The position numbers and the translations under genes were made by a program. A DNA stretch of 64,000 nucleotides from an uncultured Poribacteria bacterium (GTDB taxonomy: Bacteria; Poribacteria; WGA-4E; WGA-3G). The DNA is taken from the NCBI GenBank assembly GCA_951813565.1, contig OX638351.1, positions 5,184,001 through 5,248,000 of the forward strand. Direction: 5' to 3'. Within the stretch, counting starts at the first letter, position 1; the number at the start of each line of letters is the position of its first letter. Positions 8,362 through 62,597 of the stretch are shown here, in pieces. Under the pieces are notes generated by a model. It was not told where the DNA came from. It was given only the letters and a program-made list of their open reading frames with translations, and made no database searches.

Positions 8362-8547
8362 TATAGTAGATTTTGGAATTACTTGGGCACTCAGCGCTAG
8401 CGAGGTTAGTAAACCTCCAAATCAACGGTATGAATGCGCGTATGGCATTCACCACCTACTGGTGAATGTAAGAGGCGCAATAAATTGCGCGACTACAAAC
8501 GTCGCAAATGCCAAGAAAATGTTAACTTATTTTTATAATTCACTATA
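8362..8547. mobile_element. MITE family A copy 1 (TATAGTA.ATT...TTCACTATA ends)
   Basis: Terminal inverted repeats shared with 38080-39618 and 59493-59606; internal GCGAGGTTAG.AAACCTC hairpin. Confidence 0.6.
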
Positions 8548-8638
8548 AATGATTAAATTCCTTGTCTTCTTAAACTCAACTTTGTTGGGAATTTTATCAG
8601 AAACAGATTAGAAATGCAAGAAAAATCAACGCTGCACA

Positions 8639-9233
8639 CAGAGTTATTAGTTTTAAGAATTATCAGTTACTGAGTGTTACTTAAAGTTTATATCGTCCGT
8701 CGGGTAGAGCTTGCGAAACCTATAAATCAACGGTCTGAATGCCTGTTGGCATTCCCCGGCATGTGCCTACTACTTTGCATCGCACATCTTTTTTCTAAGT
8801 TGAGACTATGGATAGAGTGATAGCGAAACCCACCTATGATACTATTATAACGTGAGTTTGATAAAAGAATTCAATTTTGAATGTTGTGTTTCGTTTACGT
8901 TCATCTTGGCACCAAAATCAGAACAAGTGCCTTTGTTCCGTGAATCAACGCCAAATGCGCGTTTGGCATTTGGCGGGTGCGGTATGTCCGCTGAAGCCAC
9001 ATAGCACTCCTACGGAGCGCAAGAACTTGAAAACCTAACTTCTATAAACATAGCACGCCGCTGGCGTGCTGCAACATATTCGGCATCAAATTTGGATAGC
9101 CATGATATCGTGTTGGATTCCTCTAAATCATTAAGTCAAACTTACGTTAATATTATTATCAAACTCACGTTATTATAAAGTATTAACGTTTGTGATGAAA
9201 TACGCCAGAAAAACCGAAAACTGAATAACCCTG
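8639..9233. mobile_element. ISAs1-derived MITE carrying nested elements
   Basis: Ends CAGAGTTATT... and ...CTGAATAACCCTG match the IRs of the ISAs1 at 61089-62138; the left ~80 bp recurs at 48202. Confidence 0.6.
8847..9171. mobile_element. Nested MITE with an 18-bp perfect TIR
   Basis: ATAACGTGAGTTTGATAA ... TTATCAAACTCACGTTAT. Confidence 0.6.
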
Positions 9234-9251
9234 TCTTAACACAAAGTCATG

Positions 9252-9280
9252 TTGACCTAAGTATCATTATATTATATAAT
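9252..9280 (+). promoter_or_regulatory. Sigma70 promoter, probably leaderless mRNA
   Basis: TTGACC-17bp-TATAAT; ATG 6 nt downstream with no SD. Confidence 0.65.
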
Positions 9281-9286
9281 ATATGT

Positions 9287-10147
9287 ATGGGTATTGAAGT
9301 TTTCTTTAGTGATGATGCAAGTTGGGTGATGAATGAAGCGCGTGTATTTCTCAGTTCAGAGCCAGTTGACCACAATCTAATTTTGACACTTTTGCACACG
9401 CGAATTGCACGCTGTGAACCTGGACGATACTGGGTGGCAACAAACAGTAATGAGATAGTCGGTGTTGTCGTTCAGTCTCCTCTAAACTCTCGTGTACTAA
9501 TCACACCTATGACATCCGAGGTGGTTTTCGCGGTAGTAAATGCCATATCAGACGCGAACATAGCATTGCCGGGGGTAGCAGGAGAAGCTGCAACAGCGGC
9601 ATGCTTCGCTGGAGAGTGGGCAGAGCGACACAAGTCCCCTGTGTTCCCATTTTTAGGACTCCGCCTGTATGAAGTCAATGGAGTACAGGAAGCTTCAGAT
9701 GTAAAGGGGCACTTTCGTAAAGCGGTTTTGGATGACCGAGAACTTCTTATTGACTGGGTTAGCCGCTTTTCGGTAGATATAGGAGAGAAAGAAAACACTT
9801 CTGACGATGACGAATTGCAAAAGCGCAAGATTACTTCCTCACATATTGTTGACAGTTACCTATCTGATGAACATCTCTGGTTATGGGAGGATACAGAACC
9901 CGTGTCAATGGTAGCGCGGACAACCGCTGTTGTCGGTGTTGTCCAAGTGAGACTCGTCTATACGCCACAAGAGCACCGAAACCGTGGTTACGCTACTGCC
10001 TGTGTCAGTAAAATCTCAAAACAAATTCGAGACGAAGGAAATCGCTGTATCCTCTACACCGATTTATGCAATCCAATTTCTAACGCTATCTACCGTAGAA
10101 TCGGCTATCGTGCTGTAGCCGAAGCGATTCAATACCGATTTGAGTGA
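9287..10147 (+). CDS. GNAT-family N-acetyltransferase
   Basis: VYTP.EHRNRGYA acetyl-CoA motif; LYTD..NPISN.IY.RIGY. Confidence 0.9.
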   Translation: MGIEVFFSDDASWVMNEARVFLSSEPVDHNLILTLLHTRIARCEPGRYWVATNSNEIVGVVVQSPLNSRVLITPMTSEVVFAVVNAISDANIALPGVAGEAATAACFAGEWAERHKSPVFPFLGLRLYEVNGVQEASDVKGHFRKAVLDDRELLIDWVSRFSVDIGEKENTSDDDELQKRKITSSHIVDSYLSDEHLWLWEDTEPVSMVARTTAVVGVVQVRLVYTPQEHRNRGYATACVSKISKQIRDEGNRCILYTDLCNPISNAIYRRIGYRAVAEAIQYRFE

Positions 10148-12239: not shown

Positions 12240-12392
12240 GCAGCATGCCACACGGGGAATGCCATAAGGCATTCGGACCCGCTGAATGACTAAAGACGAA
12301 TGCGCTTGGTAGAATACGCTTTTGGTATTCTACATGATTCGCCATGATTCATACCGTTGATTTCTTGATTTGGCGCATGCTGCGTTGATTTG
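12240..12392 (-). repeat. Nested CAAATCA micro-insertion stack inside a REP hairpin
   Basis: A 34-nt outer unit split by a 119-nt composite (12254-12372) nearly identical to 28060-28178. Confidence 0.8.
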
Positions 12393-20890: not shown

Positions 20891-20901
20891 AATTCACATC
20901 C

Positions 20902-25003: not shown

Positions 25004-25097
25004 TGGCGGGAGAGGGTGGGAGTCGAACCCACCTATCCACTTGCATGGACAAGCCGGTTTTGAAGACCGGTAGGGCCACCGGACCCTATCCTCCCCC
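25004..25097 (-). tRNA. selC: tRNA-Sec (anticodon UCA)
   Basis: 94 nt; 8-bp acceptor GGGGGAGG/CCTCTCCC, 6-bp D stem, loop CTTCAAA, long variable arm, GTTCGA, encoded GCCA; next to selB. Confidence 0.95.
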
Positions 25098-28039: not shown

Positions 28040-28192
28040 CAAATCAACGCCAAATGCGCCAAATCAAGAAATCAACGGTATGAATCATGGCGAATCATGT
28101 AGAATACCAAAAGCGTATTCTACCAAGCGCATTCGTCTTTAGTCATTCACCGGGTATGAATGCCTTTTGGCATTCCCCGTATGGCATTTGTC
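28040..28192 (+). repeat. Nested CAAATCA micro-insertion stack
   Basis: 34-nt unit in CCCTAC^GGGAC split by a 119-nt composite; an unsplit sister unit lies at 28244-28277. Confidence 0.8.
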
Positions 28193-28397
28193 GGGACTAA
28201 AGATAGGGTGTTCAACGTTTTTCTATAAACATATCGTCCCTACCAAATCAACGTCAAATGCGCTTATGGCATTTGTCGGGACTGAAGAAGGAATCAACTA
28301 ATGATAAAAACTAACAAAACGTCATGCAATTGTGAGACAATATTTTACAAATAGTTATTTAGCACAACTCGTTACTTTTAGATGATTTTTCATTTTT

Positions 28398-34557: not shown

Positions 34558-34732
34558 TATAGGTGTCAACTTAAGAAAAATGCTGGATTTTCTCTTGTGG
34601 GAGGGAAACCTTGAAAGCCCGATTTTGTGAGTGTTAACCTGTTAAATCGGGGTTGAAAACCCGCCAAATGCCAAAAAGCGCATTTGGCGTTGATTCACTC
34701 CCACAAGAAGGTATCCTTAAGTTGACATTTAT
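34558..34732. mobile_element. MITE family C copy 1
   Basis: TIR ATAGGTGTCAACTTAAG; inverted homolog at 42404-42577. Confidence 0.75.
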
Positions 34733-38084: not shown

Positions 38085-38232
38085 TAGATTTTACAATTAC
38101 TTATACACTACGACAAGCGAGGTTAGGAAACCTCCAAATCAAGAAATCAACGGTATGAATCATGGCATTCACATTAAACGCATCAAACTTTTGACATACT
38201 CCCCAAGCTAAAGCATGGGGATTCTTCTATCA

Positions 38233-42277: not shown

Positions 42278-42403
42278 GGATTGTCCCTCAATTTGGCTAT
42301 AGGCAATTGGTTATCAGCAGTGTAGATTAGGTAGAGCTTGCGAAACCCAACATGTTATGAATTTTTCAACGGTTGAGTTGTTGGGTTTCATGATTTTCTA
42401 CCC

Positions 42404-42577
42404 ATAGGCGTCAACTTAAGGATAGATTTTCTTGTAGGAGTGAATCAACGCCAAATGCGCTTTTTGGCATTTGTCGGGTTTTCAACCCGATTTAACAGTT
42501 TGAGTCTCACAAAATCGAGCTTGAAAAGCCCTCCCACAAGAGAAAATCCAGCATTTTTTTCTTAAGTTGACATCTAT
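42404..42577. mobile_element. MITE family C copy 2
   Basis: Inverted homolog of 34558-34732, lying between prcA and pafA. Confidence 0.75.
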
Positions 42578-42620
42578 GAGTTTTGCTTACGCTCTACCCA
42601 ACCTACGGGTTCCTGAGAAG

Positions 42621-44272: not shown

Positions 44273-44469
44273 TATTCCCCCGTTCTTTGACGGTATCGCC
44301 GTGATTGGTCTTTGTCAACGCGGCGCATACGTTTGAGGAGTTCTTGCGTGTCCGGTCTGTTAACATCCGGGCGTTTAGGTGTGTTGTTATCGTCTCCACC
44401 ATCGCCGGGTTCAACCGGTTTTACCGGTCTCTGTTTGCGTTCTGGAAAATAGACAATCTGGTCTTTCAT
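44272..44469 (-). CDS. ubact: Ubiquitin-like protein UBact
   Basis: 65 aa, disordered, ends LLKRMRRVD...RYRQRTGE; sits between dop and prcB. Confidence 0.9.
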   Translation of the reverse strand: MKDQIVYFPERKQRPVKPVEPGDGGDDNNTPKRPDVNRPDTQELLKRMRRVDKDQSRRYRQRTGE

Positions 44470-44535
44470 CGGAAATTCTCCTTAATTGCTTTATGGAAGC
44501 AGTTTTTGGATTACAATCCCTCATACAGATTGGGG

Positions 44536-46053: not shown

Positions 46054-46112
46054 TATTTATGTCTTTCTATGATATCCAGACAGTGTGTTGGACCTACGAT
46101 GAAGGTAGAGAC

Positions 46113-47891: not shown

Positions 47892-48285
47892 TGTGAACGT
47901 CTCCTCACACTGAAAAAACTGACTTTACGATAGAGTTTACCACAATTCTAATCAATTTTGTGACTTTTTATCGCATGATTGCAAAAATATCAATTATCCT
48001 CAATTTTTAGGCGGATTTTAACTAAAAATTGTCTCATCTGTTGCAATTGTCATTAGTTTAACATATTTTATAAAATAGGTGCAAGTTAAAAGTTGATGTT
48101 TCCAATATAGTTTGTTCTGGTCGTAATCCTTAAAAAATACAGTGAACCATGACAAGTTTGTGCAGTTTAACAGGTATTGTAATACAAGGCAAGTTAAAAG
48201 ACAGGGTTATTTAGTTTTAAGAATTATCAGTTCCTGAGTTTTACTGTGAGTTTATATCGTCCGTCGGGTAGAACTTGCGAAACCC

Positions 48286-48735
48286 ATAGGTATCAATTTA
48301 AAGATAAATCCCGTCAAACCTTGTAGGGCCAAATCACCGCCAAATGCGCTTTTTGGCATTTGGCGGTGTCTCAGTGCCCCGCCATTGCTGATGTATTCAA
48401 ACAACGGGCGGGCACCAAATCAAGAAATCAACGGTATGAACCATGGCGAATGCCATACGGGGAATGCCAAAGGGCATTCATACCGTTGATTTGGCGCATT
48501 CGTCTTTAGTCATTCACCGGGTCCGAATGCCTTTTGGCATTCCCCGGAGACCCGCCCCTACAATCGGATTACGGTGTTGTTTGGGTTAAAATGTGTGAAA
48601 CCTGAAATAAATCCTTAAGTTGACACCTTCTTGTGGGAGGGTTTTTCAACCCCGATATATCGCGCTTAGAAAGCGCTCCTACAAGAGGATGTCCGAGGCG
48701 CGTTTTGGAAACGCGCCTCTTAAATTGACGCCTAT
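48286..48735. mobile_element. MITE family C composite copy 3 with nested micro-insertions
   Basis: ATAGGTATCAATTTAA ... TTAAATTGACGCCTAT; extra internal right end near 48613-48628. Confidence 0.6.
48416..48545 (+). repeat. Nested CAAATCA micro-insertion stack
   Basis: 95-nt composite plus an inverted 35-nt unit (48459-48493), inserted in GGGCAC^GGAGACCGCCCCTAC. Confidence 0.8.
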
Positions 48736-48834
48736 GGGTAGAGCTTGCGAAACCCAACCTACAATATAAATTTTAGTCCACTCATCAACGGATAATTCTT
48801 AAAACTAAAATATTTGTCTGCCTTCCTTTTATTC

Positions 48835-48863
48835 TTGACACATGAAAAAAATAGAAGTATAAT
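48835..48863 (+). promoter_or_regulatory. Consensus sigma70 promoter
   Basis: TTGACA-17bp-TATAAT. Confidence 0.75.
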
Positions 48864-48907
48864 TTATTTGACAATCCGCGTTCTAAAATATACTTTCGGA
48901 GGAAAAA

Positions 48908-49144
48908 ATGTTTGACGATATCGGGAAAACTGCCGGCGAAATTTGGCATTATCTTGAAAAACATGAGGAGGCATCTGTCGGAAAATTGACAAAAGAACTG
49001 AGACAAACTGAACGTATGGTACTCCTTGGCATCGGTTGGTTAGCCCGCGAAGGAAAATTAAACATCGAAAAACGGCAAAGAGCCACCTATTTCATGTTAA
49101 ATACCGCTTCTACTTCTGATAATAGGGAGAATACTGTAGAATGA
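48908..49144 (+). CDS. Small winged-helix protein (DUF2582-like)
   Basis: IG.TAG.IW.YL ... GIGWLAREGK; GGAGG RBS. Confidence 0.8.
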   Translation: MFDDIGKTAGEIWHYLEKHEEASVGKLTKELRQTERMVLLGIGWLAREGKLNIEKRQRATYFMLNTASTSDNRENTVE

Positions 49145-51753: not shown

Positions 51754-51785
51754 TTTCGTGGGAAGGTTTGTATCCCGTTTTTCCG

Positions 51786-51814
51786 TTGCGTAAACCTATT
51801 TTTGTGCGTATAAT
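51786..51814 (+). promoter_or_regulatory. Sigma70 promoter of hisB
   Basis: TTGCGT-17bp-TATAAT. Confidence 0.55.
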
Positions 51815-51885
51815 AGAATAGGTTGTGTAGGGTAAGATAGTATTGATTCAAACGAAGTTAGCACAGAATTAAAAAACACTCACAA

Positions 51886-52473
51886 ATGGAAAGAAAAGCA
51901 GAAATTACACGCGAAACCAGGGAAACCCAAATCCGCCTCAGTCTAAACCTTGACGGAAACGGAACGTCCAATATCAACACTGGCGTTGGATTTCTGGATC
52001 ACATGTTAGAACTTTTTGCAAAACACGGATTCTTTGATCTGGAAGTTGAAGCGAAGGGTGATTTGCATGTAGACGCACATCACACGACAGAGGATGTTGG
52101 TATCTGCTTAGGACAGGCATTGCAGAAGGCAGTAGGCGACAAAGCAGGGATGAGACGTTTTGGCAGTTTCGCTGTCCCAATGTACGAATCTCTTGCGAAA
52201 GTTGATCTGGATATCTGTGGACGACCCTTTCTACATTACGAAACACCCCTTGACTCTGGTAAAGTCGGTGAATTTGATATAGAATTGACTGAGGAATTTT
52301 TCCACGGATTTGTGAACAATAGCGGCACAACTTTACACATTAACGTCCCGTATGGCACAAATCAACATCACATTATTGAAGCGATTTTTAAGGCGGTTGC
52401 AAAAGCATTAGATATTGCAACTCAATTTGACGAGCGTATTACTGGTGTGCTTTCTACTAAAGGAAGTTTGTAG
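51886..52473 (+). CDS. hisB: Imidazoleglycerol-phosphate dehydratase
   Basis: [27 protein letters not shown]. Confidence 0.97.
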
Positions 52474-52761
52474 GAAACCAAAATATTTTCTTAAGAGTTT
52501 GTGGCATTTGTAGTCGCGCAATTCATTGCGCCTCGGACATTTATTTCTTTATAGTCGCACAATTTACTGTGCCTCCTACATTTACTAAACTTCGGACAAT
52601 TTATGTGTTTCAGAAAGCCTTATAAAAAGGTGACACCCAATAGAAAGCCCAGCGGGGCGATATGTGTATAATTATAGTGTTTCAATAATTGAAGGTCTTA
52701 CGAATACTTTAATTTTTTAGGCAAATACGAGTCCAATACCCATTCATCGTAGGAGAACTCT

Positions 52762-54054
52762 ATGAGTAACGGCAACGTTATCGCAGTAATTCTTGGAGGC
52801 GGACGCGGCGCACGCCTATTTCCATTAACACGCGACCGCGCAAAACCGAGTGTCCCGATTGCTGGTAAATTTCGGTTGGTTGACATCCCGATTAGCAACT
52901 GCCTACATTCAGGGTTAGAACGCATTTATGTTTTAACCCAGTTCAATTCCGTTTCTCTGAACAGACACATCGCACAAACTTATCGTTTTGACTCTTATCG
53001 CCGAGGGTTCGTCCAAATTTTGGCAGCACAACAAACGCTCATGGGCGATGAATGGTATCAGGGTACAGCGGATGCTGTTAAGCACAATCAACCTTATATT
53101 CTCAACCCACGTATAGCAGACGATCACGTTCTAATCCTTGCAGGCGACCATCTCTATCGGATGGATTATCGGAAAATGTTGGCAGTTCACACTGAAACCA
53201 ATGCGGACATAACGGTATCTGTGATTCCTGTGAAAAAAGAGGTTACAAGCGGACTTGGTATCCTCCAAGCTGATGCGAACGGACGTATAACCGATTTTGT
53301 CGAAAAACCGCAAACAGCGGAGGAACTACAGCAGTTATGTGTTGAACCTGATGTTTTTACCTCGCGTGGAATTGAGTCCAAAGGGAGAGAATACATCGCC
53401 TCTATGGGAATTTATATCTTTAACAGTGATGTCTTGCAAGAGGTCCTCCAAGATGATTCAAATGTGGATTTCGGAAAAAATATTATTCCGAAAAGCATTA
53501 AGACGCGCCAAGTTTCTGCATACTTTTTCGATGGGTATTGGGAGGATATTGGGACGATTCACTCCTTCTATTCTGCCAATATTGCCCTAACTGATGTATC
53601 ACCTGAATTCAATTTCTACGATGAACAAGCACCGATCTACACCAACCGCAGACATTTACCGAGCACCAAAGTAAATAGCAGTAGTGTCCGATCCTCTATT
53701 CTCGCTGAAGGTTCAATCATTGATGATTCGGAACTTGACAGAACGATTGTCGGTATTCGCAGTATTATCTCTAACGGTAGTAGAATTTATCAGTCTGTGC
53801 TTATGGGAGCAGATTACTATGAGTCCGATACACTCCGTGCAGAAAACACCAAAGCAGGGATTCCGAGTATTGGTATTGGGAGAAAATGCTTAATTCAAAA
53901 TGCAATTATTGACAAAAATGCGCGAATAGGTGATAATGCTGTCATAGCAAATACAAAAAATCTTGACAATCACGATGCGGTTAACTATTATATTCGTGAT
54001 GGAATTGTGATTGTCCCTAAAGACGCAACAATTCTACCTGATACGGTTATCTAA
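52762..54054 (+). CDS. glgC: Glucose-1-phosphate adenylyltransferase
   Basis: GGGRGARLFPLT..RAKP, LTQFNS.SL, GTADAV, YWEDIGT. Confidence 0.96.
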   Translation: MSNGNVIAVILGGGRGARLFPLTRDRAKPSVPIAGKFRLVDIPISNCLHSGLERIYVLTQFNSVSLNRHIAQTYRFDSYRRGFVQILAAQQTLMGDEWYQGTADAVKHNQPYILNPRIADDHVLILAGDHLYRMDYRKMLAVHTETNADITVSVIPVKKEVTSGLGILQADANGRITDFVEKPQTAEELQQLCVEPDVFTSRGIESKGREYIASMGIYIFNSDVLQEVLQDDSNVDFGKNIIPKSIKTRQVSAYFFDGYWEDIGTIHSFYSANIALTDVSPEFNFYDEQAPIYTNRRHLPSTKVNSSSVRSSILAEGSIIDDSELDRTIVGIRSIISNGSRIYQSVLMGADYYESDTLRAENTKAGIPSIGIGRKCLIQNAIIDKNARIGDNAVIANTKNLDNHDAVNYYIRDGIVIVPKDATILPDTVI

Positions 54055-54122
54055 ACCTAACGTTTAGCGAGTAGAGTTTACGCTCTACCGCTATGAAGCC
54101 TTTGGCAAAAGGAGCGTTTCAC

Positions 54123-54893
54123 ATGTCCAAAATGTTATCACTTCTATTTCTTAGTCTTTTGATAATTTCACCACAAGTCGTCGCACTTGATACAGATGGC
54201 TTGGTTGGCGCATGGCTGTTTGATGATGGCAAAGGGGAAACCGTTACCGATTCTTCAGATAATGGCTTAGATGGAAAAATAGCAAGAGGAAACCCAAAAT
54301 GGGTTGATGGAAAATTCGGTGGCGCAATGGAATTTGGTGGCGCAGACATGGTGACAGTTGCTGATGATGCTGCACTTGATCTCAAATCCTTTACACTCTC
54401 AGCGTGGGTGAATATTCCGAAAATTTCCGGTCCCTGGCAAATTATTGCATCAAAGGAGAATCGCAATCCAACTGGACGAAACTACGGAACGTTCGCGCAC
54501 ACTAACTCTGGTGTAGTTCATTATTCCTTCACAACAGGCGGCTGGAAGTCGTTTGATGCAAAAACTGTCATAACTGATGGAAAATGGCGTCATATCGTCG
54601 CAACCTATGCAAAGCCGGATTTCAAACTTTATGTTGATGGGGAGGTTGATGCGCAAACGGCACCAAATACCGATCCCGATAACCATGATAATTTCCTCTA
54701 TATCGGAGGATGTGACATCGGAAACTATTGGATGAGCGGTACTATTGACGAGGTCGTTCTCTACGATAGGGCCCTTGATGAGGCGGAAATCAACGAATTA
54801 ATGGAAAAAGGCATCACAGATGCTTTAGACGTAAAACCGGGTGGGAAACTGGTAACTACGTGGAGCCAGATTAAATCACACGCTACTCAGTAG
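54123..54893 (+). CDS. Secreted LamG-like jellyroll protein
   Basis: Signal peptide, W.FDDG.G, WRHIVATY, GTIDEV..Y.RAL; tail VKPGGKLVTTWSQIK. Confidence 0.88.
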   Translation: MSKMLSLLFLSLLIISPQVVALDTDGLVGAWLFDDGKGETVTDSSDNGLDGKIARGNPKWVDGKFGGAMEFGGADMVTVADDAALDLKSFTLSAWVNIPKISGPWQIIASKENRNPTGRNYGTFAHTNSGVVHYSFTTGGWKSFDAKTVITDGKWRHIVATYAKPDFKLYVDGEVDAQTAPNTDPDNHDNFLYIGGCDIGNYWMSGTIDEVVLYDRALDEAEINELMEKGITDALDVKPGGKLVTTWSQIKSHATQ

Positions 54894-55008
54894 TATTTTG
54901 TATCAACACTGTAAACTCCATAAGCGCGGTTGTATGCTGCGCTTATACTAATTATCACTTTACTAACCACACATATTTATGCGGTTATAATAAAATGAGG
55001 AGAATATA

Positions 55009-55773
55009 ATGAATAAGATCACAATTTTTGTAATTCTAACCCTTTTTGCTGTTTCACCAAATCTAATGGCAGTAACGACCGACGGACTTGTCGGTGCATG
55101 GTTGTTTGATGACGGTACAGGTAATGCGGTTTCGGATTCATCCGGTAATGATTTAGATGGCGAACTTGTAAATGGTGAACCTAAATGGGGCGATGGTAAA
55201 TTTGATGGTGCAATGGAATTTGGTGGGGCAGATATGGTAACCGTCCCTGACAATGATGCACTTGACCTAACATCCTTTACGATCGCTGCCTGGATTAATA
55301 GTCCGGAAACATCGGGAAGATGGCATGTTATCGCCGCAAAAGAAACGCGCAATCCCACCGGACGAAACTACGGCATTTTTGGCCACGTCAACAGCGGTGT
55401 AATTCATTATTCCTTCACATCTGGTGGTTGGAAATCGTATGATGCGAAAACCAATGTCACTGACGGTGCATGGCATCACGTCGCCGCAACCTATGAAAAA
55501 CCGAATTTCAAGCTCTACATAGATGGAGAACTCGATGCTGAAGTAGCCCCGAATGCAGACCCTGAGAGCAACGACAGTCCGCTGTATATTGGTGGGTGCG
55601 ACATCGGAAACTATTGGATGACTGGTACAATTGACGAGGTCGTTCTCTATGACAGAGCACTTAGCGAACAAGAAATTGCTGAATTGATTCAGGATGGGAT
55701 GGTTTCGGTGACTCCAGTGGAACCTATCGGAAAGTTGGCGACGACTTGGAGCCAGATCAAAGCAGTAAGGTAA
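55009..55773 (+). CDS. Secreted LamG-like jellyroll protein (tandem paralog)
   Basis: Highly similar to the upstream gene; tail VEPIGKLATTWSQIK. Confidence 0.88.
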   Translation: MNKITIFVILTLFAVSPNLMAVTTDGLVGAWLFDDGTGNAVSDSSGNDLDGELVNGEPKWGDGKFDGAMEFGGADMVTVPDNDALDLTSFTIAAWINSPETSGRWHVIAAKETRNPTGRNYGIFGHVNSGVIHYSFTSGGWKSYDAKTNVTDGAWHHVAATYEKPNFKLYIDGELDAEVAPNADPESNDSPLYIGGCDIGNYWMTGTIDEVVLYDRALSEQEIAELIQDGMVSVTPVEPIGKLATTWSQIKAVR

Positions 55774-55918
55774 ATTCTACTGTGCGCTTTGCGTTCCCGA
55801 AAAATTTGAGCGAATTTCGTGCACAAACACATGGATCTCGTCCTATTTTGGATGGACCCTAAAACTATAAGAACAATACAGCATATTTGCTTCTATTGAA
55901 GGAAGGCATACTCTTAAT

Positions 55919-56194
55919 ATGGCTGAAGTAAGACAGCAGCTACTTGTTCTACATTTACACACACCAGACCTCAACAGCCACGTCGTTGCATGGGCAATGT
56001 ACGATGGCACTGGCGAAAAACGCTATACTACTGGTGATAGCGAGGCTCCACCCTATAACTCCGTTATAGAAGCAATGCAGGATGGTTGGCGGGTTATTCA
56101 GTTTCCACAGCAATTTCCTGCTTTTCCCGGCATGGAGTATCACACTTCATATCTAAGATTCGAATATATCTTGGAGAAATTGGAGGAAATCTAA
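55919..56194 (+). CDS. Small hypothetical protein coupled to the downstream PhyH gene
   Basis: GAAGGAAGG RBS; TAATG overlap with the next gene. Confidence 0.7.
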   Translation: MAEVRQQLLVLHLHTPDLNSHVVAWAMYDGTGEKRYTTGDSEAPPYNSVIEAMQDGWRVIQFPQQFPAFPGMEYHTSYLRFEYILEKLEEI

Positions 56195-57012
56195 TGGTTG
56201 ATAAACAGTATCTCCTTACCACAGAACAGATGGCGAATTTTGTAGCCGACGGTTACCTTCGCTTTGACGATTTTATCCCCGATGAATTAAATAAAGCCGC
56301 ACATGCAGAAATGCAGTCTGGCGTTCAAGTTCGTGGTGGTGGTGGCACCGTATTAGACGATGTATGGCACGACGATTCCGCTGTAGGAAAAGTCTTTCGC
56401 CTCCCTCAGGTACAAGGCATTATTGAAAGCCTTGTCGGTGAGGCACCGTTGTTTGACCATCATGCTACTCACATTGTGCGACCACAGAGTCAACACGGAC
56501 AGATTTGGCACGCGGATGCTATCATTGATATTCGGATGCACTTCGACATTCAGTTCTTTTATTTTTCACACGACACACCACGCGAAATGGGTGGCACAAT
56601 GATTTTGCCCGGAAGCCATTTCAGACGGGTCTGTGAAACAGACATTGCGCGTTACCAAAACTTCCTTGGACAACATCCCATGGTATGTAATGCTGGCACA
56701 CTTGTCGTTGTTCACCACGGGATGTGGCACTGCGCACAACCGAATTTGACTGAAGATACCCGCTACATGTATAAACTACGTCTCAACCCGACTGTCCGCC
56801 AACTCAAACTTTGGAACACAGATGACATTGATGCTCCCGGTATCCGAGGCATTTTGAGTCGAAACCATAGATGGTATGGCAACGATGTTCGACTTGAAAT
56901 AGTCAACCGAATAAAACTTTGGCGGTTCCTTATCGGTGATGAATCGTACGATGTCGGTTATTGGCTATCTCGTCTTGAAAATATGCCGGAGAATGTCCCG
57001 AACGTTGCATAG
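56194..57012 (+). CDS. PhyH-family Fe(II)/2-oxoglutarate dioxygenase
   Basis: F..DGYL, WHAD, GGT.ILPGSH, MWH. Confidence 0.85.
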   Translation: MVDKQYLLTTEQMANFVADGYLRFDDFIPDELNKAAHAEMQSGVQVRGGGGTVLDDVWHDDSAVGKVFRLPQVQGIIESLVGEAPLFDHHATHIVRPQSQHGQIWHADAIIDIRMHFDIQFFYFSHDTPREMGGTMILPGSHFRRVCETDIARYQNFLGQHPMVCNAGTLVVVHHGMWHCAQPNLTEDTRYMYKLRLNPTVRQLKLWNTDDIDAPGIRGILSRNHRWYGNDVRLEIVNRIKLWRFLIGDESYDVGYWLSRLENMPENVPNVA

Positions 57013-57051
57013 TTTGGACACGTCAGCGTGTTTAAACAACCTTCAAATATA

Positions 57052-57102
57052 ACAAAAACGAACCCACATGAACTTGCAAAAGTTCATGTGGGTTCGTTTT
57101 TA
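57052..57102. terminator. Bidirectional terminator hairpin
   Basis: AAAAACGAACCCACATGAACTT-GCAA-AAGTTCATGTGGGTTCGTTTTT between convergent genes; diverged copy near 59664-59714. Confidence 0.8.
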
Positions 57103-57127
57103 TAAAGTTAATGTAAAATTATAGTTG

Positions 57128-57904
57128 TTAATCAATAGAAAAAGTAACAATTTCGCTACCATCCCCTCTGAGAATACCACGCTCCCGAAGTTGACGGATT
57201 ATCCGTTCACGATCCTCTTGCGAAACACCCCCAGATCTTCGAGGTGTATCTTGTGCTTTTTTCATCGCTTCTTCTTTGGCTTTTTTCATAGCAGCCTCTT
57301 TATCAAAGGATTCCTTATTGTTGCTACTTACGTTCTGATTAGAATTTTCTGATCTGGATGAACTACTGCGACGCGAACCACTACTATTGAGAAACGGCGT
57401 ATTTCTAATTCTAATTGTTATAGTTTCACCATTCTTGTCCAAAATTACTTTCTTCTCTTGAATTTCTTTTACGACTGCATCACCAACTTTATCGCCAAAA
57501 CCAGCTATATAAAATTTGTTTGAACGTTCCTCTAATATAAACGCTTCTGATAGACTACCGTTCGGGTCAATTGCAGTGCCAATCAGCGTATACTGAGGTT
57601 CTCTATTAGGTGGTCTCCAACCGAGCGGACGAAAGAGGTTATTATCAACAATTACTTTATAGAAATCTGAACTATCATCAGATTTTGCACTTTTCGAAAG
57701 TCTTTTTACACTCCAATTAGAACTTTTTTCAAGGTTTCGAAATTGACCCATCCGAGGTGTTGCTTGTAATTTCATTTCGTTTACTTTTGCTGTGGTGATT
57801 TCCTTTTTCATCGCATTCTGAGCTTGGAGTCGGACCCCAATTACAAGTAGTAGGATTGCTATACAACCTATTCCTGAAAAAATGAGGATTTTTGAATGTC
57901 TCAC
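57128..57904 (-). CDS. Membrane-anchored GspC/PilP-like domain protein
   Basis: N-terminal TM, N.F.P..., L.GT......AFI, GD.VGD..VKEI....V.L..NG; low-complexity tail. Confidence 0.6.
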   Translation of the reverse strand: MRHSKILIFSGIGCIAILLLVIGVRLQAQNAMKKEITTAKVNEMKLQATPRMGQFRNLEKSSNWSVKRLSKSAKSDDSSDFYKVIVDNNLFRPLGWRPPNREPQYTLIGTAIDPNGSLSEAFILEERSNKFYIAGFGDKVGDAVVKEIQEKKVILDKNGETITIRIRNTPFLNSSGSRRSSSSRSENSNQNVSSNNKESFDKEAAMKKAKEEAMKKAQDTPRRSGGVSQEDRERIIRQLRERGILRGDGSEIVTFSID

Positions 57905-58088
57905 TATATTCTCCTTATTTCAGAGCAAGCGACCATTATAAAAACGTAATGTATCATTAATTATATCATGATTAATTATGATTTGTAAAATCTACTTTAA
58001 ATCATCCTTCATATTTAAAGACGCGAATATATGGAAAAATTGTTGCATAATTTCCGCACTTTGTGAATCAACAGCGAGTGTGTAGTTT

Positions 58089-59444
58089 GTGATACCACCC
58101 ACTACCTAAAGGTAGGGGCTTCGGTTTCATCGCGATTGCGCTGTTTCCGAAGAAATCAGCGTCTTACTTTCGCTCCACCAGCAGGCTCTTATGCCGTATC
58201 AGAACGGTTTTATCGTGCATTATCACACGGGTACCCCAGCCTGCAATATATTGATAGCAGCGTTGATGTCTCTATCGTGATGCGTCTGACATTGTTGGCA
58301 CGTCCAGTGCCTATCGGTGAGTTGTAAATCGTTGTTGCTGTGTCCGCAATGATGACACGGTTTGGTTGTGGGTTGCCATTTATCTGTTTTGGCAAGCACT
58401 TTCCCATATTTGTGGCAAGTCCATTCAAGAATGAGTGCAAACTCACCGAAGGCAATATCGGAGACTTTACGACCCCACAATCGTTTCATCGCATCAAGAT
58501 GAAGCGTTTCAATCGCAATGTAATCATATTTGTGAACGAGACGCAATGCTACCTTGAAAAACCAGTCTCTTCGTTGATTCGCTATCTTCTTATACGCGCG
58601 AGAAAGGTGGCGTTTCGCTTTATACCATCCATTAGATAAGTATGTCTTGCGAGATAACCCTTTGTGCGCACAACGGATAGCCCTGAGACTGTTCTTATAG
58701 AACTCGGGAGACTTTATCTGCGTGCCATCTGACAATGTGAGAAATGTTTTGAGACCAAAATCTATCCCTGCTCTATGACCTGTCTTGGGAAGATGTGCTA
58801 TCGGTTCAGATGCATTACAAGTCAGTATAAGATAATAATCCCCGACATTATCACGCTTGATCGTGACGGTTTTGATTTGACACGTCCAATCGCAATGTTT
58901 CCAAAAAGTAAACCACTTTTTTAGACAACTGATATAGATACGATTACCTTCAATCTTATAGCCCGCTTGTGTGAATGTCATGGAGTTATATTTATGTTGT
59001 GGTTTGATATGCGGTTTACCGATCCTTTTGGTCGTTTTACCGGATCGACGGTCTTCTATGTTTTGAAAAAACCTTTGGTAGCCTTTATCAATACGAAACA
59101 CAACATCTTGAATAACTTGGCTCGGTAGTTGGTTCCAATGTGGTTTTGTCCGTTTCTTCAACTTCGCAATATGCTTGTTCATTGTATACACAGGTATGTA
59201 TTTGCCAAATAGACGATAATAACGCCTTTGCAACTTCAGAACATGCACATGCACCTGATGTAGATCATCAAGCAGGTTGCCAAGTCGGATTAGATTAGAT
59301 TGGTGAGATAACTCGTATTTATACGCTTTCATTGGTCGGTAAGTATATCATATCTATGAGGATAGACAAGGTTTTTTGTGTAAATAGTGGTCTGAGCCCG
59401 TCTACATCCCACAAGCTGAAGCATGGGGATTTGACGGGAAGGTG
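58089..59444 (-). mobile_element. IS200/IS605-family TnpB-only element 3
   Basis: LE after TTAA with hairpin CCCCATGCTTCAGCTTGTGGG; RE GAAGCCCCTACCTTTAGGTAGTGGGTGGTATCAC. Confidence 0.85.
58223..59332 (-). CDS. tnpB: RNA-guided endonuclease TnpB
   Basis: GIDFG / IETL / DRDINAA; CHHC..CQQC. Confidence 0.95.
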   Translation of the reverse strand: MKAYKYELSHQSNLIRLGNLLDDLHQVHVHVLKLQRRYYRLFGKYIPVYTMNKHIAKLKKRTKPHWNQLPSQVIQDVVFRIDKGYQRFFQNIEDRRSGKTTKRIGKPHIKPQHKYNSMTFTQAGYKIEGNRIYISCLKKWFTFWKHCDWTCQIKTVTIKRDNVGDYYLILTCNASEPIAHLPKTGHRAGIDFGLKTFLTLSDGTQIKSPEFYKNSLRAIRCAHKGLSRKTYLSNGWYKAKRHLSRAYKKIANQRRDWFFKVALRLVHKYDYIAIETLHLDAMKRLWGRKVSDIAFGEFALILEWTCHKYGKVLAKTDKWQPTTKPCHHCGHSNNDLQLTDRHWTCQQCQTHHDRDINAAINILQAGVPV

Positions 59445-59606: not shown

Positions 59607-59748
59607 AGTGTAATTATAGGCTTTACTATAATCTTGACTTGCCTTCTACATATCTGTCTTTGTACAACAAAACCCCACAAGAACTTGCATAAGTCCCTGT
59701 GGGGTTCGTTTTTGTAAAGTTGCTGTAAATTATGTCTGTAAATCTAAA

Positions 59749-60561
59749 CTAACGATTTCCTCCACGACGTCCTCTGGTACCACCGCGCTCCCGAAATTCA
59801 CGGATCATCCGTTCACGATCCCCTCGCGAAGCATTTTGAAATCTCCTCTGCATCTCCCTCATCTTTGCCATCTCTTGCGCCTTCATTTTTTCAGCGGCTG
59901 CTTTTGCCTTATCATCATCTTTATCAGAGGATTTAGATGAGGATTCATTATTATCACTTTCGTTCCGATTAGCACTTTCCGATCTGGACGGACTACTGCG
60001 GCGCGAACCACCAGAACCCAGAAACTGTATATTTCCTCTTCTGAGCGTGATCGTTTCACCATTTTTGTCCAAAGTGACCTTCTTCTGTTCAATTTCCTTA
60101 ACGACAGTATCACCCACTTTATCGCCAACACGGGCTACATAAAATTGATTTGAACGTTGTTCTAACACAAACGCCTCCGATGGTCCACCGTTCGGGTCGA
60201 AAGCTGTACCGATTAGGGTATATTCAGGTTCTTTATTAGGTGGTCTCCAACCGAGCGGACGAAAAAGATTATTGTCAACAATCATACCGTAAAAATCGGA
60301 GCTATTATCTGCCTCAGAACTATTGGAACGTTGCTGTCCACCCCAGTTCGACGCTTGCTGACGACCTTGTGCTGACCAGTTCTGTTGACGGTTGCGAAAC
60401 TGTGCTGACCGTTGTGCCGCTTGCGGACTCATTTGTCTTTCTTTAACCGCAATAAGTTTCTCTTTAGTCTCATTCTGTGCTTGTAGTTTTACCCCAATTA
60501 AGAGTAGTAACCCTACTACACAACTTATTCCTAAAAAAACGAGAATTTTTGAATACTTCAC
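59749..60561 (-). CDS. Membrane-anchored GspC/PilP-like domain protein (paralog of 57128-57904)
   Basis: Shared IVDNNLFRPLGWRPPN.EP.YTLIGTA core; same AAGGAGAATATAGTG start context. Confidence 0.6.
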   Translation of the reverse strand: MKYSKILVFLGISCVVGLLLLIGVKLQAQNETKEKLIAVKERQMSPQAAQRSAQFRNRQQNWSAQGRQQASNWGGQQRSNSSEADNSSDFYGMIVDNNLFRPLGWRPPNKEPEYTLIGTAFDPNGGPSEAFVLEQRSNQFYVARVGDKVGDTVVKEIEQKKVTLDKNGETITLRRGNIQFLGSGGSRRSSPSRSESANRNESDNNESSSKSSDKDDDKAKAAAEKMKAQEMAKMREMQRRFQNASRGDRERMIREFRERGGTRGRRGGNR

Positions 60562-61088
60562 TATATTCTCCTTGTTTGCAGTACGATGTGAATCACTATA
60601 AACCTGCAAAGCATCTTTTCATTTAGTTTGACTATTTTGGTCGTAAAAAGTTCATTTTTTTTTAGATTCCACTATTAATAACTATAGTTTGGACATTTTT
60701 TTATATGTGAGTTCAATATAAGAGATCGATTTATACATCTGTTAACAATTTTGACGCAACACACAAAACAGAAACCCTCTTTGCTCCAGCAGAGCAATAT
60801 GTTTATAGCAACAGTATGAACCGTCATATCCGCTCCAGCGGAGCGGTCCGTAGTGAACTGGCACATAGCACTCTGCTGGAGTGCGAGAATGTGTACATTA
60901 TGTTTTCTATAGACATAGCACTCCGCTGGAGTGCAGCATTTTCGCGGGGTTCCATTGATATGAGAAACTCGCAAAAAAATAGATTCTCCATTGAAAACTC
61001 AACTATCACTGAACAAGAATTGTCAAAACTTTAGTATTAATAATTTTACTACATTTTTTACCTGATGTCAAGTTTCCTAATAATGAGG

Positions 61089-62138
61089 CAGGGTTATTCA
61101 GTGTTATGAATTTTCATTTTATAAGGTTAATTGCGAGTTTAGGTTTTGAAGCGAGATATTTGATTGTATCAGAGATAGCTGTATACCCTGCAAATCGTCC
61201 TACCGATAATGCTGTATTACGATTTGCTGCCATAACTTGTGGTATAGCACCGCATCGGACAGGAGAGGCATCTTCTACAAGCACCGTTCCTCGCATCCAG
61301 TGCGACTTGTTCTCTATTGACCAATGTCCACGCCGTCCAGTCAGTAAGCGTTCGGCAGATGCTGCTGCGGGTTTTAGACTTGTTATACCATAGTGGACTT
61401 TTGTGTGTTTCTTCTTTTGTGTTCAGACTTTTGTCCGTCCAATGATATTGGATCACTTGTGCTATCCCTGGCCAGTCCAGATACGCATTGAGGCTTGTGC
61501 TTGCTTTGGGACACCTTGTCTCAAGTCTCCCATGTGATTTTTCAACTGTCTCGTAAATGTGGATCGGTTTTCCTAAAACAGGGTGTGTTGTCTCCTCAGA
61601 AAGTGTGTCAGGAACGTCTTGAAAAAGTTTCTCAATCGCATCTAAAAGGTCAGGTTGGTTGTCTTTGACAGGGAGCACATAGTCGCCTTCACGCTCTATG
61701 ATGGCATGGCAGAAAGTTCGCTGTGTCAAATTCTTAGAGTTTCTTCTAATGCCTCAACATCTAACTTTTTCAATAGATTATGGATAGTTGCAGCACAAGG
61801 TGTTATCTTCTTTGTGAAACCGAGTGCTTTTGCGAGTGCTGGTTGTGAGCGTGCCCAAATAGCGATTGATGTCCACCCTTTATGTCCGCACATCAATCCG
61901 ATAACGACAAGTGCAAGGATTGATGTCAGCGGATGTCGTTTCCCTTTATTCTTGCGTGGGTCTTCAAGTTTTGCTAACATATCTATCAAGTGGCAAGATT
62001 TTCTTCTTGTCATTATTCACCTCAAAATAGGTCGTTTTAAGGTGAACTATAGCAGATATGGTGTAAAAAAACACGCTATATCTGCTTTTCATAAAAAATA
62101 AATACTTGTGAAAAAATTTCGAAAACTGAATAACCCTG
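61089..62138 (-). mobile_element. Degenerate ISAs1-family element
   Basis: IRs CAGGGTTATTCAG / CTGAATAACCCTG around transposase fragments. Confidence 0.85.
61110..62013 (-). pseudogene. ISAs1 transposase pseudogene with internal deletion and frameshifts; 3' limit approximate
   Basis: Fragments DPR...GKRHPL, GDYVL.VKDNQ, EKSHGRLETR in different frames; central catalytic region absent. Confidence 0.85.
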
Positions 62139-62406
62139 AACGGAAAGGGTGAGTGTTGAGGATGTTTGTCAACAACTCGGGATACATTGGTATCGTTCTG
62201 TGAACCTCACACTCGGATTGCGTGTCGCTTTTCTGCGCTTGCGAATAGCGCAAACGTTATTTTCTGTGAGTTCAAAACAAAAATCATACATGCAGAATAT
62301 TGCACATATCTTTCAACAAATCAAAGATAAACCTATGGACAAGCCTACTTGAATATAATAATATTGTCCAAACTTTAGCGTGCAGGTGCATAAGTCCTGA
62401 CTATAA

Positions 62407-62597
62407 TAACCTAAGTTGCTACGGACAAGATTTCAAGTTAGCAAACACTGCTTTTTACTGAAAAACAAGGCTTTTTCGCTGATTCTTATGTTTTTTGTTC
62501 TAAAATCCAAATCAACACCAAATGCGCGTTTGGTATTTGGCGGGGTTAGAAACCCCTCCTACAAGAGCATTTGCGAAATAGGTGGCAACTTGGGTTA
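62407..62597. mobile_element. MITE family B copy 3, carrying a 34-nt micro-insertion
   Basis: 191 bp versus 156 bp for its sisters; extra unit at 62508-62541. Confidence 0.78.

What the first reader, a model, noticed from the sequence alone, without database searches (positions are those of the whole stretch)
8418..62541. Family of 34-41 nt CAAATCA-hairpin micro-insertion elements targeting C^G steps in REP hairpins
Seen directly: at least 13 intergenic insertion sites share a (CA/TG/TA)AATCA leader, usually CAAATCAAC, followed by a hairpin with an ATGC...GCAT core. Sites: 8418-8453, 8723-8757, 8941-8974, 12240-12392, 28040-28192, 28244-28277, 34663-34697, 38135-~38172, 40436-40476, 42441-42475, 48330-48364, 48416-48545, 62508-62541. 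Removing a unit restores a host hairpin without a clear target duplication, usually at C^G: CCCTAC^GGGAC, AAATC^GGGG, GGC^GCAATG, GGGC^GGTG, GCAC^GGAG. Stems vary in a compensatory way (GCCAAATGC/GCATTTGGC versus GCAGCATGC/GCATGCTGC), so structure is conserved more than sequence. Inference: a minimal non-autonomous mobile unit, far smaller than a MITE and mostly lacking TIRs, plausibly moved by a ssDNA HUH enzyme (RAYT/TnpA-like) encoded elsewhere. I do not recognise it as a described element.
Basis: partly seen in the sequence, partly recalled or inferred. Interest (0 to 1): 0.88.

Follow-up and report, generated by a model that had tools for sequence, protein, structure and literature searches.

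The report
Tiny tagged hairpin repeat nesting in REPs
This sponge-symbiont (Candidatus Poribacteria) genome carries hundreds of copies of a 34-36 base DNA unit, a fixed AATCAAC tag plus a small hairpin, slotted cleanly between a C and a G of other hairpin repeats and of its own copies; it looks like a very small mobile element whose enzyme is still unknown.

Summary
Twelve of the 13 listed sites carry a (YR)AATCA leader plus a hairpin, alone or nested; 38135-38172 is a degenerate stub.

- **Abundance:** leader 10-mers are the commonest words of the 5.43 Mb genome (CAAATCAACG 550 vs 12 expected).
- **Structure:** 363 of 2358 AATCAAC sites have at least 9 of 10 stem pairs, vs 0 in controls. Stems covary.
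- **Insertion signature:** removing the unit gives an exact "empty" 20-mer elsewhere for 192 of 363 units, at 47 distinct junctions, mostly C^G and without duplication.
- **Distribution:** one Poribacteria family only, 0-314 copies per genome.

- RAYT genes here are flanked by GTAG REPs, not by units.
- RAYTs also occur in unit-free families.
- Three unit-rich genomes show no Y1 gene.

New here: the first two leader bases track the flanking base.

Closest known are tagged REPs (PMC3733652) and, from recall, cyanobacterial SDRs. I rate it a new variant of a known kind. This scan has reported the same element before, in other windows of this genome and in other Poribacteria genomes.

The parts
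8418..8453 (+). Simple unit. CA leader, GGTATGAATGC-type arm, imperfect stem; the right flank is not G.
   Evidence: 7-bp hairpin, -5.7 kcal/mol, z -1.55; only a shifted 16-mer empty site
8723..8757 (+). Simple unit. TA leader, GGTCTGAATGCC...GGCATTCCCC arm.
   Evidence: no empty-site match
8941..8974 (+). Simple unit. TG leader after a G flank. Perfect 10-bp stem whose last G (8975) belongs to the flank.
   Evidence: (-11.9 kcal/mol, z -3.57)
12240..12392 (-). 153-nt composite. The outer GCAGCATGC unit has its loop (GC^G) filled by a 119-nt block of further units. It sits at GGC^GCAATG of a GTAG-tagged REP.
   Evidence: exact empty 20-mer TCAAAGAGGC^GCAATGAATT, 3 copies; loop length 126 nt recurs 12 times in the genome
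28040..28192 (+). 153-nt composite. The outer GCCAAATGC/GCATTTGTC unit carries the same 119-nt inner block in its loop. It sits at CCCTAC^GGGAC.
   Evidence: empty 20-mer TCGTCCCTAC^GGGACTAAAG, 4 copies
28244..28277 (+). Simple unit at CCCTAC^GGGAC.
   Evidence: -7.0 kcal/mol, z -3.5; empty 20-mer, 2 copies
34663..34697 (-). Simple unit, TG leader, between CTTGTGGGAG and the GGGTTTTCAACCCC hairpin of a GTRG-tagged REP.
   Evidence: empty 20-mer, 26 copies
38135..38172 (+). Degenerate stub: doubled leader CAAATCAAG-AAATCAAC plus a partial arm, with no stable hairpin.
   Evidence: -1.3 kcal/mol, z 0.02; the doubled leader occurs 120 times in the genome
40436..40476 (.). 41-nt perfect palindrome in which a CAAATCATG leader forms part of both arms (sister AATCATG-tag family).
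   Evidence: -15.3 kcal/mol, z -6.92; AATCATG-tag units listed
42441..42475 (+). Simple unit, TG leader, inside the left REP of a REPIN-like composite that fills the intergenic spacer 42278-42620.
   Evidence: empty 20-mer CTTGTAGGAG^GGGTTTTCAA, 10 copies; the orthologous spacer is 3-67 nt and repeat-free in 11 of 17 comparable relatives
48330..48364 (+). Simple unit with leader variant CAAATCACC and an 11-bp stem.
   Evidence: no empty-site match
48416..48545 (+). 130-nt composite of units in both orientations, sitting at GGGCAC^GGAGACCC of a host hairpin.
   Evidence: 16-mer empty site GCGGGCAC^GGAGACCC, 1 copy
62508..62541 (+). Simple unit at AAATC^GGGGTTAGAAACCCC, the 5' foot of a REP hairpin.
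   Evidence: 16-mer empty site, 1 copy

Best explanation
The sites belong to one family of very small, non-coding, non-autonomous insertion elements of Candidatus Poribacteria.

Anatomy (shown): a unit is 34-36 nt. It has two variable bases, a fixed tag AATCAAC (a sister tag is AATCATG), and then a 9-10 bp hairpin with a 7-8 nt loop. The last C of the tag pairs with the first G of the target.

Behaviour (shown): units lie without target duplication at a C^G step, less often G^G. The step is usually the 5' foot of a G-rich hairpin of another repeat (REP, REPIN or MITE), the 3' end of another unit, or the GC^G step in the loop of another unit. Units occur in either orientation. Once in place, units are also copied passively as parts of composites and tandem arrays.

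Mechanism (inferred): the hairpin is what is recognised, probably on single-stranded DNA, by an enzyme supplied in trans that cuts and joins at the hairpin foot.

The enzyme is not identified. A Y1 HUH enzyme (RAYT) is only one candidate, at about one chance in four. The data fit an enzyme of another or unknown kind at least as well.
For: **Real and abundant.** CAAATCAACG occurs 550 times against 12 expected, and the top genome 10-mers come from this family. AATCA followed by a hairpin occurs 488 times against 22-64 for four control 5-mers. Of 2358 AATCAAC sites, 363 have at least 9 of 10 stem pairs, against 0 in controls.

**Structure selected.** Stems such as GCCAAATGC, GCAGCATGC, GCTGAATGC, ACCGAATGC and GCCGAATAC each come with matching 3' arms. 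Covariation score is 0.178 against 0.080 in shuffles, 0 of 500 as high.

**Insertion signature.**
- Excision at one offset pair gives exact empty 20-mers for 132 of 478 units and for 192 of 363 on the main diagonal. Offsets outside the two main diagonals give 1-4.
- There are 47 distinct junction 20-mers. Position -1 is C in 40 of 47 and +1 is G in 33 of 47.
- There are 152 distinct contexts.
- There is no repeat of the target beyond the single C.
- Nested copies sit at GC^G in loops, in two outer unit types and in both orientations.

**Other genomes.** 87 of 89 CA-led units follow a C, and 77 of 89 precede GGG.

**Non-essential and variable.**
- 414 of 488 lie outside ORFs of at least 100 aa, with no orientation bias to genes.
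- A strict pattern gives 314 copies here, 0-262 in 35 of 37 congeners, 1-15 in 36 of 57 genomes of a sister genus, and 0 in 51 genomes of other families. The reversed control gives 0 everywhere.
- The orthologous spacer is 3-67 nt and repeat-free in 11 of 17 comparable relatives.
- Subfamilies are lineage-specific, with many identical copies.
Against: - No enzyme was found.
- No empty/filled polymorphism at one orthologous locus was seen.
- Much of the copy number is passive:
  - the same junction is filled 10-31 times;
  - the GG-led class, 35 copies and mostly the ACCGAATGC variant set inside a longer repeat, has 0 of 35 empty sites;
  - loop fillings of 126, 102 and 42 nt recur 12, 8 and 17 times;
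  - tandem arrays occur.
- The first two bases depend on the flank and not on unit lineage. A simple cut-and-paste of a fixed element does not predict this.

Against Y1 HUH specifically:
- RAYT genes are flanked by GTAG REPs.
- IS605 ends are unrelated to the unit.
- RAYT model matches occur in 135 of 151 phylum genomes, including unit-free families.
- G001, G010 and G023 give no Y1 match but carry 125, 93 and 160 leader copies.
- G001 also has almost no GTAG REPs, 13 against a control of 6.
- Units show no strand polarity along the chromosome, 433 against 384.
Confidence: 0.6

Rival explanations
1. The unit never moves by itself. It is a module of larger repeats (REPINs, MITEs, arrays). It spreads only when those are copied, and by slippage, unequal recombination and gene conversion between copies. 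On this view the empty sites are the unit-free relatives of those repeats, or precise hairpin deletions.
For: - Identical junctions are filled 10-31 times.
- 0 of 35 GG-class units have empty sites.
- Composite blocks recur 8-17 times.
- Arrays with 35-nt and 86-nt periods occur.
- In G001 most copies sit in one repeated GCGGATT context.
- The same hairpin and loop haplotypes occur with CA, TG and CG leaders, as conversion would give.
Against: - There are 47 distinct junction 20-mers with empty counterparts, across unrelated host repeats, all cut at the same C^G geometry.
- Insertions into loops occur in two different outer units, with different inner variants and both orientations.
- The same C...GGG rule holds in other genomes in many contexts.
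- Homology of 7-9 nt is short for recombination (general knowledge, not tested).
Confidence: 0.22
2. One reading: a mini-element moved in trans by a Y1 HUH transposase (RAYT or IS200/IS605 TnpA) acting on single-stranded hairpins.
For: - The genome has 10 Y1 matches, two of them intact RAYTs (NF047646, 116 and 132.5 bits against a cut-off of 80).
- Both intact RAYT genes have one unit 160-180 nt upstream in the gene's orientation.
- Units land between the GTRGGAG tag and the hairpin of GTAG REPs.
- No target duplication and a tag-plus-hairpin architecture are typical of substrates of this enzyme class (PMC3733652 abstract; enzyme mechanism recalled).
Against: - RAYT genes are flanked on both sides by GTAG REPs, not by units.
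- IS605 ends are unrelated to the unit, and most TnpB genes have no unit within 400 nt.
- RAYT model matches occur in 135 of 151 phylum genomes, including 39 of the 51 sampled genomes of families that have no units.
- G001 (97% complete), G010 (94%) and G023 (92%, one contig) have no PF01797 or NF047646 match, yet carry 93-160 leader copies with lineage-specific subfamilies.
- No strand polarity.
- Weakening this last set: G023 and G010 also keep about 115 GTAG REPs without a RAYT, so relics can persist after the enzyme is lost.
Confidence: 0.15
3. A host-selected structural motif, such as a terminator, a protein-binding hairpin or an RNA element, and not selfish DNA.
For: The hairpin is kept by compensatory change, and units are mostly intergenic.
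Against: - No orientation preference relative to flanking genes: 59 against 60 in +/+ spacers and 83 against 60 in -/- spacers.
- 0-314 copies among congeners.
- Missing from orthologous spacers in relatives.
- Nested in other repeats and in itself.
- No Rfam family at gathering score.
Confidence: 0.03

Closest known systems
Tagged REPs (GTAG- and CGTC-tagged palindromic repeats; Di Nocera et al. 2013, PMC3733652; abstract and sections 7 and 16 read)
   Same: - 20-40 bp palindromic repeats in high copy number between genes, with an unpaired tag at one end.
- Families specific to lineages.
- Some families are regularly inserted inside other palindromes, and for one of them hundreds of empty targets exist.
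- CGTC REPs lack a dedicated transposase.
   Different: - The tag here is AATCAAC (or AATCATG) preceded by two context-dependent bases. It fits neither GTAG nor CGTC.
- Units are mostly single, not inverted dimers.
- No preference for the downstream side of genes.
- Units nest inside GTAG REPs of the same genome and inside their own loops.
REPIN/RAYT systems (Bertels and Rainey 2011, PMC3116915; two passages read)
   Same: Short hairpin repeats treated as miniature mobile DNA. RAYT genes and GTAG REPs or REPINs are present in this genome and serve as hosts of the units.
   Different: The replicating entity there is an inverted REP pair tied to a flanked, single-copy RAYT. Here it is a single asymmetric unit with no flanked RAYT, and it is also present in genomes without any Y1 match.
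Small dispersed repeats SDR1-8 of Nostoc (Elhai et al. 2008, Genome Res 18:1484). The paper is not held, so its features are recalled. Only its citation and one mention were seen, in PMC3116915.
   Same: Recalled: 21-27 nt repeats that appear mobile, sit inside one another and inside other repeats, and have no known enzyme.
   Different: Recalled: they are shorter, occur in another phylum, and have different sequences. I could not check their target rule or structure against the paper.
IS200/IS605 elements and their hairpin-ended derivatives
   Same: No target duplication, and hairpins at the ends. The family is abundant in this genome: 51 TnpB and 10 Y1 matches.
   Different: - The ends of the main resident IS (hairpins CCCCTGCCTTTAGGTAGGGG and CCCCTACCTTTAGGTAGTGGG, and the terminal TACCTATGAC) are unrelated to the unit.
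- The unit has one hairpin, not two.
- Only one conserved target base is seen, not four or five.
- No strand polarity.

Membership tests
REP (tagged REP sensu PMC3733652) | Small (20-40 bp) palindromic repeat in high copy number | tested here: met
   34-36 nt; 363 copies with at least 9 of 10 pairs, and 550 leader 10-mers
REP (tagged REP sensu PMC3733652) | Unpaired terminal tag fitting GTAG or CGTC | tested here: not met
   The tag is YR-AATCAAC or AATCATG
REP (tagged REP sensu PMC3733652) | Extragenic location | tested here: met
   414 of 488 lie outside ORFs of at least 100 aa. The ORF call is crude.
REPIN/RAYT (REPtron) | A RAYT gene flanked by the repeat on both sides | tested here: not met
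   The RAYTs of L008, L009 and L010 are flanked by GTAG-type REPs. The two intact ones (L008, L010) have only one unit, upstream.
REPIN/RAYT (REPtron) | Repeat organised as inverted pairs (REPIN) | tested here: not met
   Most units are single or head-to-tail. Inverted pairs occur only in some composites, e.g. 48416-48545.
REPIN/RAYT (REPtron) | Presence of the repeat tracks presence of a RAYT across genomes | tested here: not met
   RAYT model matches in 135 of 151 genomes, including unit-free families. Three unit-rich genomes have no Y1 match.
IS200/IS605-derived mini-element | Ends related to a resident IS200/IS605 left and right end | tested here: not met
   The ends of the main IS are unrelated. 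Only the ~25-copy IS was examined; other TnpB groups were checked only for nearby units.
IS200/IS605-derived mini-element | Insertion 3' of a conserved 4-5 nt target, no duplication, strand bias | tested here: inconclusive
   No duplication is met. Only 1 nt is conserved on the left and GGG on the right. No strand bias was seen, but the replichores cannot be read from GC skew.
MITE of a DDE transposon | Terminal inverted repeats plus target-site duplication | tested here: not met
   The leader is asymmetric, and there is no direct repeat beyond a single C.
Integron attC site | Paired R''/R' boxes in a 57-141 nt hairpin, ordered arrays with cassettes, and an IntI integrase. The definition is recalled. 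| tested here: not met
   No integron integrase: best 33 bits against a cut-off of 265 in 5 genomes. Units are dispersed in both orientations. No attC model was available to run.
Small dispersed repeats (Elhai 2008) | 21-27 nt families of Nostocaceae, nested and apparently mobile (recalled) | not testable with these tools
   The paper is not held.

The most novel reading that the evidence does not exclude
The units are an active class of CpG-step-targeting single-hairpin micro-transposons moved by an enzyme that is not a Y1 HUH transposase, either a new kind of enzyme or a host replication or repair activity.

Two observations point this way. Units have expanded with lineage-specific subfamilies in genomes without any detectable Y1 gene. 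Their first two bases are set by the target (C gives CA; G gives TG, CG or GG) and not inherited from the donor. The second point would mean that part of the element is made at the moment of insertion.
Probability: 0.2. Interest if true: 0.85.

Novelty: new variant of a known kind. Interest (0 to 1): 0.58.

Why it matters
If the units do move, they are among the smallest mobile DNAs: about 35 nt, with one hairpin and one tag. They would extend the two known tag superfamilies of REPs by a third.

They also offer a natural system for asking how hairpin DNA is recognised, cut and joined.
- Hundreds of filled and empty sites exist within single genomes.
- Subfamilies carry compensatory stems.
- Related genomes range from 0 to more than 300 copies.
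- Some unit-rich genomes have no known candidate enzyme.

A practical point: these units and their host repeats break short-read assemblies of Poribacteria at intergenic regions.

Tried and rejected
- **Reads.** One search found 10 runs holding the stretch. Logan contigs of 4 runs were laid on 39500-58000. All contigs end at the repeat clusters (for example 42424-42539 and 48231-48721), so no record bridges a unit. Empty/filled polymorphism could be neither shown nor excluded. The joints listed there have sides of at most 33 letters and may come from paralogous repeats.
- **Replichore bias.** GC skew is not bipartite, so no test was possible. No local polarity of units was seen.
- **IS605 link.** No unit lies within 400 nt of 29 of the 43 TnpB genes that could be placed in an ORF, and the IS ends are unrelated.
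- **IS91 Y2 transposase.** 0 of 5 genomes matched, but the control genomes did not ring either, so this says little.
- **Integron integrase.** No match over the cut-off in 5 genomes.
- **Autonomous master copy with a gene in the loop.** Long-range arm pairs were only neighbouring or inverted units.
- **Methyl-CpG decay as the source of CA/TG leaders.** CpG observed/expected is 1.03, so this is rejected.
- **Short target duplication.** The second-last base of the flank and of the unit are not associated.
- **Rfam.** At gathering score the only match in the window is tRNA-Sec.
- **Literature.**
  - 'small dispersed repeats' + cyanobacteria gave 6 papers, none on this element.
  - Poribacteria + repeat/REP/transposase: 12 titles were read, none relevant.
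  - Poribacteria + 'extragenic palindrom' gave 1 irrelevant review.
  - Elhai 2008 is not held.

Full report
**What is there.** The window is G000:C1:5184001-5248000 of a single-contig 5.43 Mb genome with 43% G+C. Public records holding the same element are almost all titled Candidatus Poribacteria MAGs: of the 80 rows shown, 77 are. The runs holding the stretch are sponge metagenomes.

All 13 listed sites were read.
- Eight are simple 34-36 nt units.
- Three are nested composites: two of 153 nt and one of 130 nt.
- One is a 41-nt perfect palindrome with an AATCATG-type leader.
- One, 38135-38172, is a degenerate stub that does not fold.

The leader is far above chance in the window: CAAATCAAC 7 against 1.31 expected, and AATCAACG 18 against 3.26. 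In the genome CAAATCAACG occurs 550 times against 12 expected, and the commonest 10-mers of the whole genome come from this family.

**Anatomy.** I anchored on AATCAAC alone, with no hairpin required. Of 2358 sites, 363 have at least 9 of 10 Watson-Crick pairs in a fixed geometry (stem 10, loop 7 in 274 and 8 in 84), against 0 in a control with random 3' arms. At 8 or more pairs the figures are 461 against 7. AATCA followed by a strict hairpin occurs 488 times, against 22-64 for four control 5-mers.

The stem starts at the C of AAC, and its last G belongs to the flank. There are 133 distinct unit sequences. Stem types such as GCCAAATGC, GCAGCATGC, GCTGAATGC, ACCGAATGC and GTAGAATAC each carry the matching 3' arm. 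On 50 distinct units from the window and from other genomes:
- 91.4% of cells pair, against 25-41% when the partner is slid;
- 29 cells change on both sides, against 8.0 in shuffles (0 of 500 reach it);
- 4 of 10 pairs covary.

The top four pairs were fixed by the search pattern in 42 of those rows. A sister family with tag AATCATG has about 100 copies.

**Insertion signature.** I cut each unit out at every combination of offsets and looked for the joined 10+10 flank elsewhere in the genome.
- There is one sharp maximum: from 2 nt before AATCA to 1 nt before the end of the hairpin.
- 132 of 478 units match there, while offsets outside the two main diagonals give 1-4.
- In the geometry-anchored set, 192 of 363 units match on that diagonal.
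- The 47 distinct junctions have C at -1 in 40 and G at +1 in 33. The other 14 have the C of a following unit at +1.
- Flank and unit share no repeat beyond the single C.

Targets are the 5' foot of G-rich hairpins of other repeats: CTTGTRGGAG^GGGTTTTCAACCCC, AAATC^GGGGTT..., CCCTAC^GGGAC and ATTGC^GCCTC. Other targets are the 3' end of another unit and the GC^G step in the loop of another unit. Loop insertions occur in two outer unit types, with different inner variants and in both orientations.

In other Poribacteria genomes, 87 of 89 CA-led units follow a C and 77 of 89 precede GGG.

**Passive spread is large.**
- Single junctions are filled 10-31 times.
- The GG-led class has 35 copies, mostly the ACCGAATGC variant set in a longer repeat, and no empty site at all.
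- Loop fillings of 42, 102 and 126 nt recur 17, 8 and 12 times. The window's two 153-nt composites share one 119-nt inner block inside two different outer units.
- Tandem arrays occur in relatives.

So the number of independent insertions is far below the copy number.

**Not a host-function motif.**
- 414 of 488 units lie outside ORFs of at least 100 aa, by a crude ORF call.
- Orientation is indifferent to the flanking genes and to chromosome position.
- The spacer 42278-42620 holds a REPIN-like composite with unit 42441-42475. In 11 of 17 comparable congeners the orthologous spacer is 3-67 nt without repeats; three further loci lacked the second flank.

**Distribution.** A strict pattern (AATCAACG, four free bases, ATGCG, 4-8 free bases, GCAT) gave these counts:

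| Group | Genomes with a match | Copies per genome |
|---|---|---|
| This genome | - | 314 |
| Same genus | 35 of 37 | 0-262 |
| Sister genus | 36 of 57 | 1-15 |
| Two further genera of the family | 1 of 2 and 1 of 1 | - |
| Eight other families of the phylum | 0 of 51 | 0 |
| Reversed control pattern | 0 anywhere | 0 |

The leader 10-mer is enriched in all 24 congeners tested, at 29-319 against 5-18 for the control. Dominant variants differ between genomes.

**Who moves it.** The genome has 10 Y1 matches and 51 TnpB matches. Two ORFs are intact RAYTs by NCBIfam, and a third is broken by a stop.
- All three are flanked by GTAG-type REPs. The two intact ones have a single unit 160-180 nt upstream, which itself sits in a flanking repeat.
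- The ~25-copy IS200/IS605 has unrelated ends.
- The RAYT model matches 135 of 151 sampled genomes, including 39 of the 51 that belong to unit-free families.
- G001, G010 and G023 (97, 94 and 92% complete; G023 is one contig) give no match to NF047646 or PF01797. They carry 125, 93 and 160 leader copies with their own subfamilies and many identical copies.
- G023 and G010 also keep about 115 GTAG REPs without a RAYT, so relics can outlive the enzyme. G001, however, has almost no GTAG REPs (13 against a control of 6) and still has the units.
- In G001 most fetched copies lie at ACGC^GGAT of a short GCGGATT repeat, and two lie at the centre of a GCAAACAC^GTGTTTGC palindrome.
- No IS91-type enzyme and no integron integrase was found.

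I therefore keep a trans-acting hairpin enzyme as the inferred mechanism, but give a Y1 enzyme only about one chance in four.

**A new clue.** Across 152 distinct contexts, the two bases before AATCAAC follow the last base of the flank.
- After C they are CA in 64 of 76.
- After G they are TG in 35, GG in 8, CG in 6, CC in 2 and never CA, out of 51.

The same stem and loop haplotypes occur with CA, TG and CG. These two bases therefore behave as set by the site and not inherited with the unit. Methyl-CpG decay does not explain this, since CpG observed/expected is 1.03. I have no tested explanation. Conversion between units, or synthesis of the junction at insertion, would both fit.

**Comparison.**
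- By size, palindromy, copy number, extragenic position and a one-sided unpaired tag, the units are REP-like.
- PMC3733652 (abstract, sections 7 and 16) describes GTAG and CGTC tags, REPs nested in other palindromes with hundreds of empty targets, and CGTC REPs without a dedicated transposase.
- The tag here fits neither superfamily. The defining REPtron arrangement was tested and not met.
- The nesting recalls the small dispersed repeats of Nostoc (Elhai 2008). That paper is not held, so this is recall.
- My three literature searches found no description of this family.

**Earlier notes of this scan.** The same element was reported before in at least eight other windows of this genome and in other Poribacteria genomes. 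The verdict there was the same: real, tiny, enzyme unknown. My tests agree. They add the family-level distribution, the Y1-free carriers, the decoupling from GTAG REPs in G001, and the flank-dependent leader bases.

**Verdict.** It is a new variant of a known kind. The mover is unknown.

Noticed in passing
window 25008-25097 (-): A tRNA-Sec gene (Rfam RF01852, 78.1 bits against gathering score 47). It was the only Rfam match in the window.
   Followed up: no
window ORFs 33183-34304(-), 38233-39390(-), 58223-59332(-): Three TnpB-like genes (matches to PF07282). The genome has 51 such matches and one ~25-copy IS200/IS605 whose ends carry CCCCTRCCTTTAGGTAG hairpins.
   Followed up: partly
genome-wide; window examples 8941 (G|TG), 28244 (C|CA), 42441 (G|TG): The two bases before AATCAAC depend on the last flank base. 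After C they are CA in 64 of 76 contexts. After G they are TG, GG, CG or CC and never CA, in 51 contexts. The hairpin haplotypes are shared between the classes. Unexplained.
   Followed up: partly
window 42278-42620: A REPIN-like composite of about 240 nt with inverted ends GTCAACTTAAG...CTTAAGTTGAC and two inverted GTRGGAG-tagged REPs. Parts of it match many other places in this genome and in congeners.
   Followed up: partly
L010 1905-2261 (G000:C1 about 242490-242850): Directly downstream of a RAYT gene lies an array of about nine ~43-nt GTAG-REP copies (GTCGCGAGCTGGAG...CTCCTACA). It reads through as a spurious 118-aa ORF.
   Followed up: no
L074 (another Poribacteria MAG), 61-848: Eight units within 908 nt, five of the seven gaps being 86 nt: a tandem array of a composite that contains the unit.
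   Followed up: no
G023:C1:1044407-1044615: Six identical 35-nt units head to tail, in a genome with no detectable Y1 transposase.
   Followed up: no
whole genome: Cumulative GC skew is not bipartite and changes sign many times, so origin and terminus cannot be read from it. The genome is either heavily rearranged or the single-contig assembly has joins at repeats.
   Followed up: no
L006 1462-1962 (G000:C1 about 3097970-3098470): A single-copy IS200-like gene of 166 aa, flanked by its own repeat family (GCACC..GGTGCGAAAGGTGTATAGTAAAC). It may be a further RAYT-like system.
   Followed up: partly
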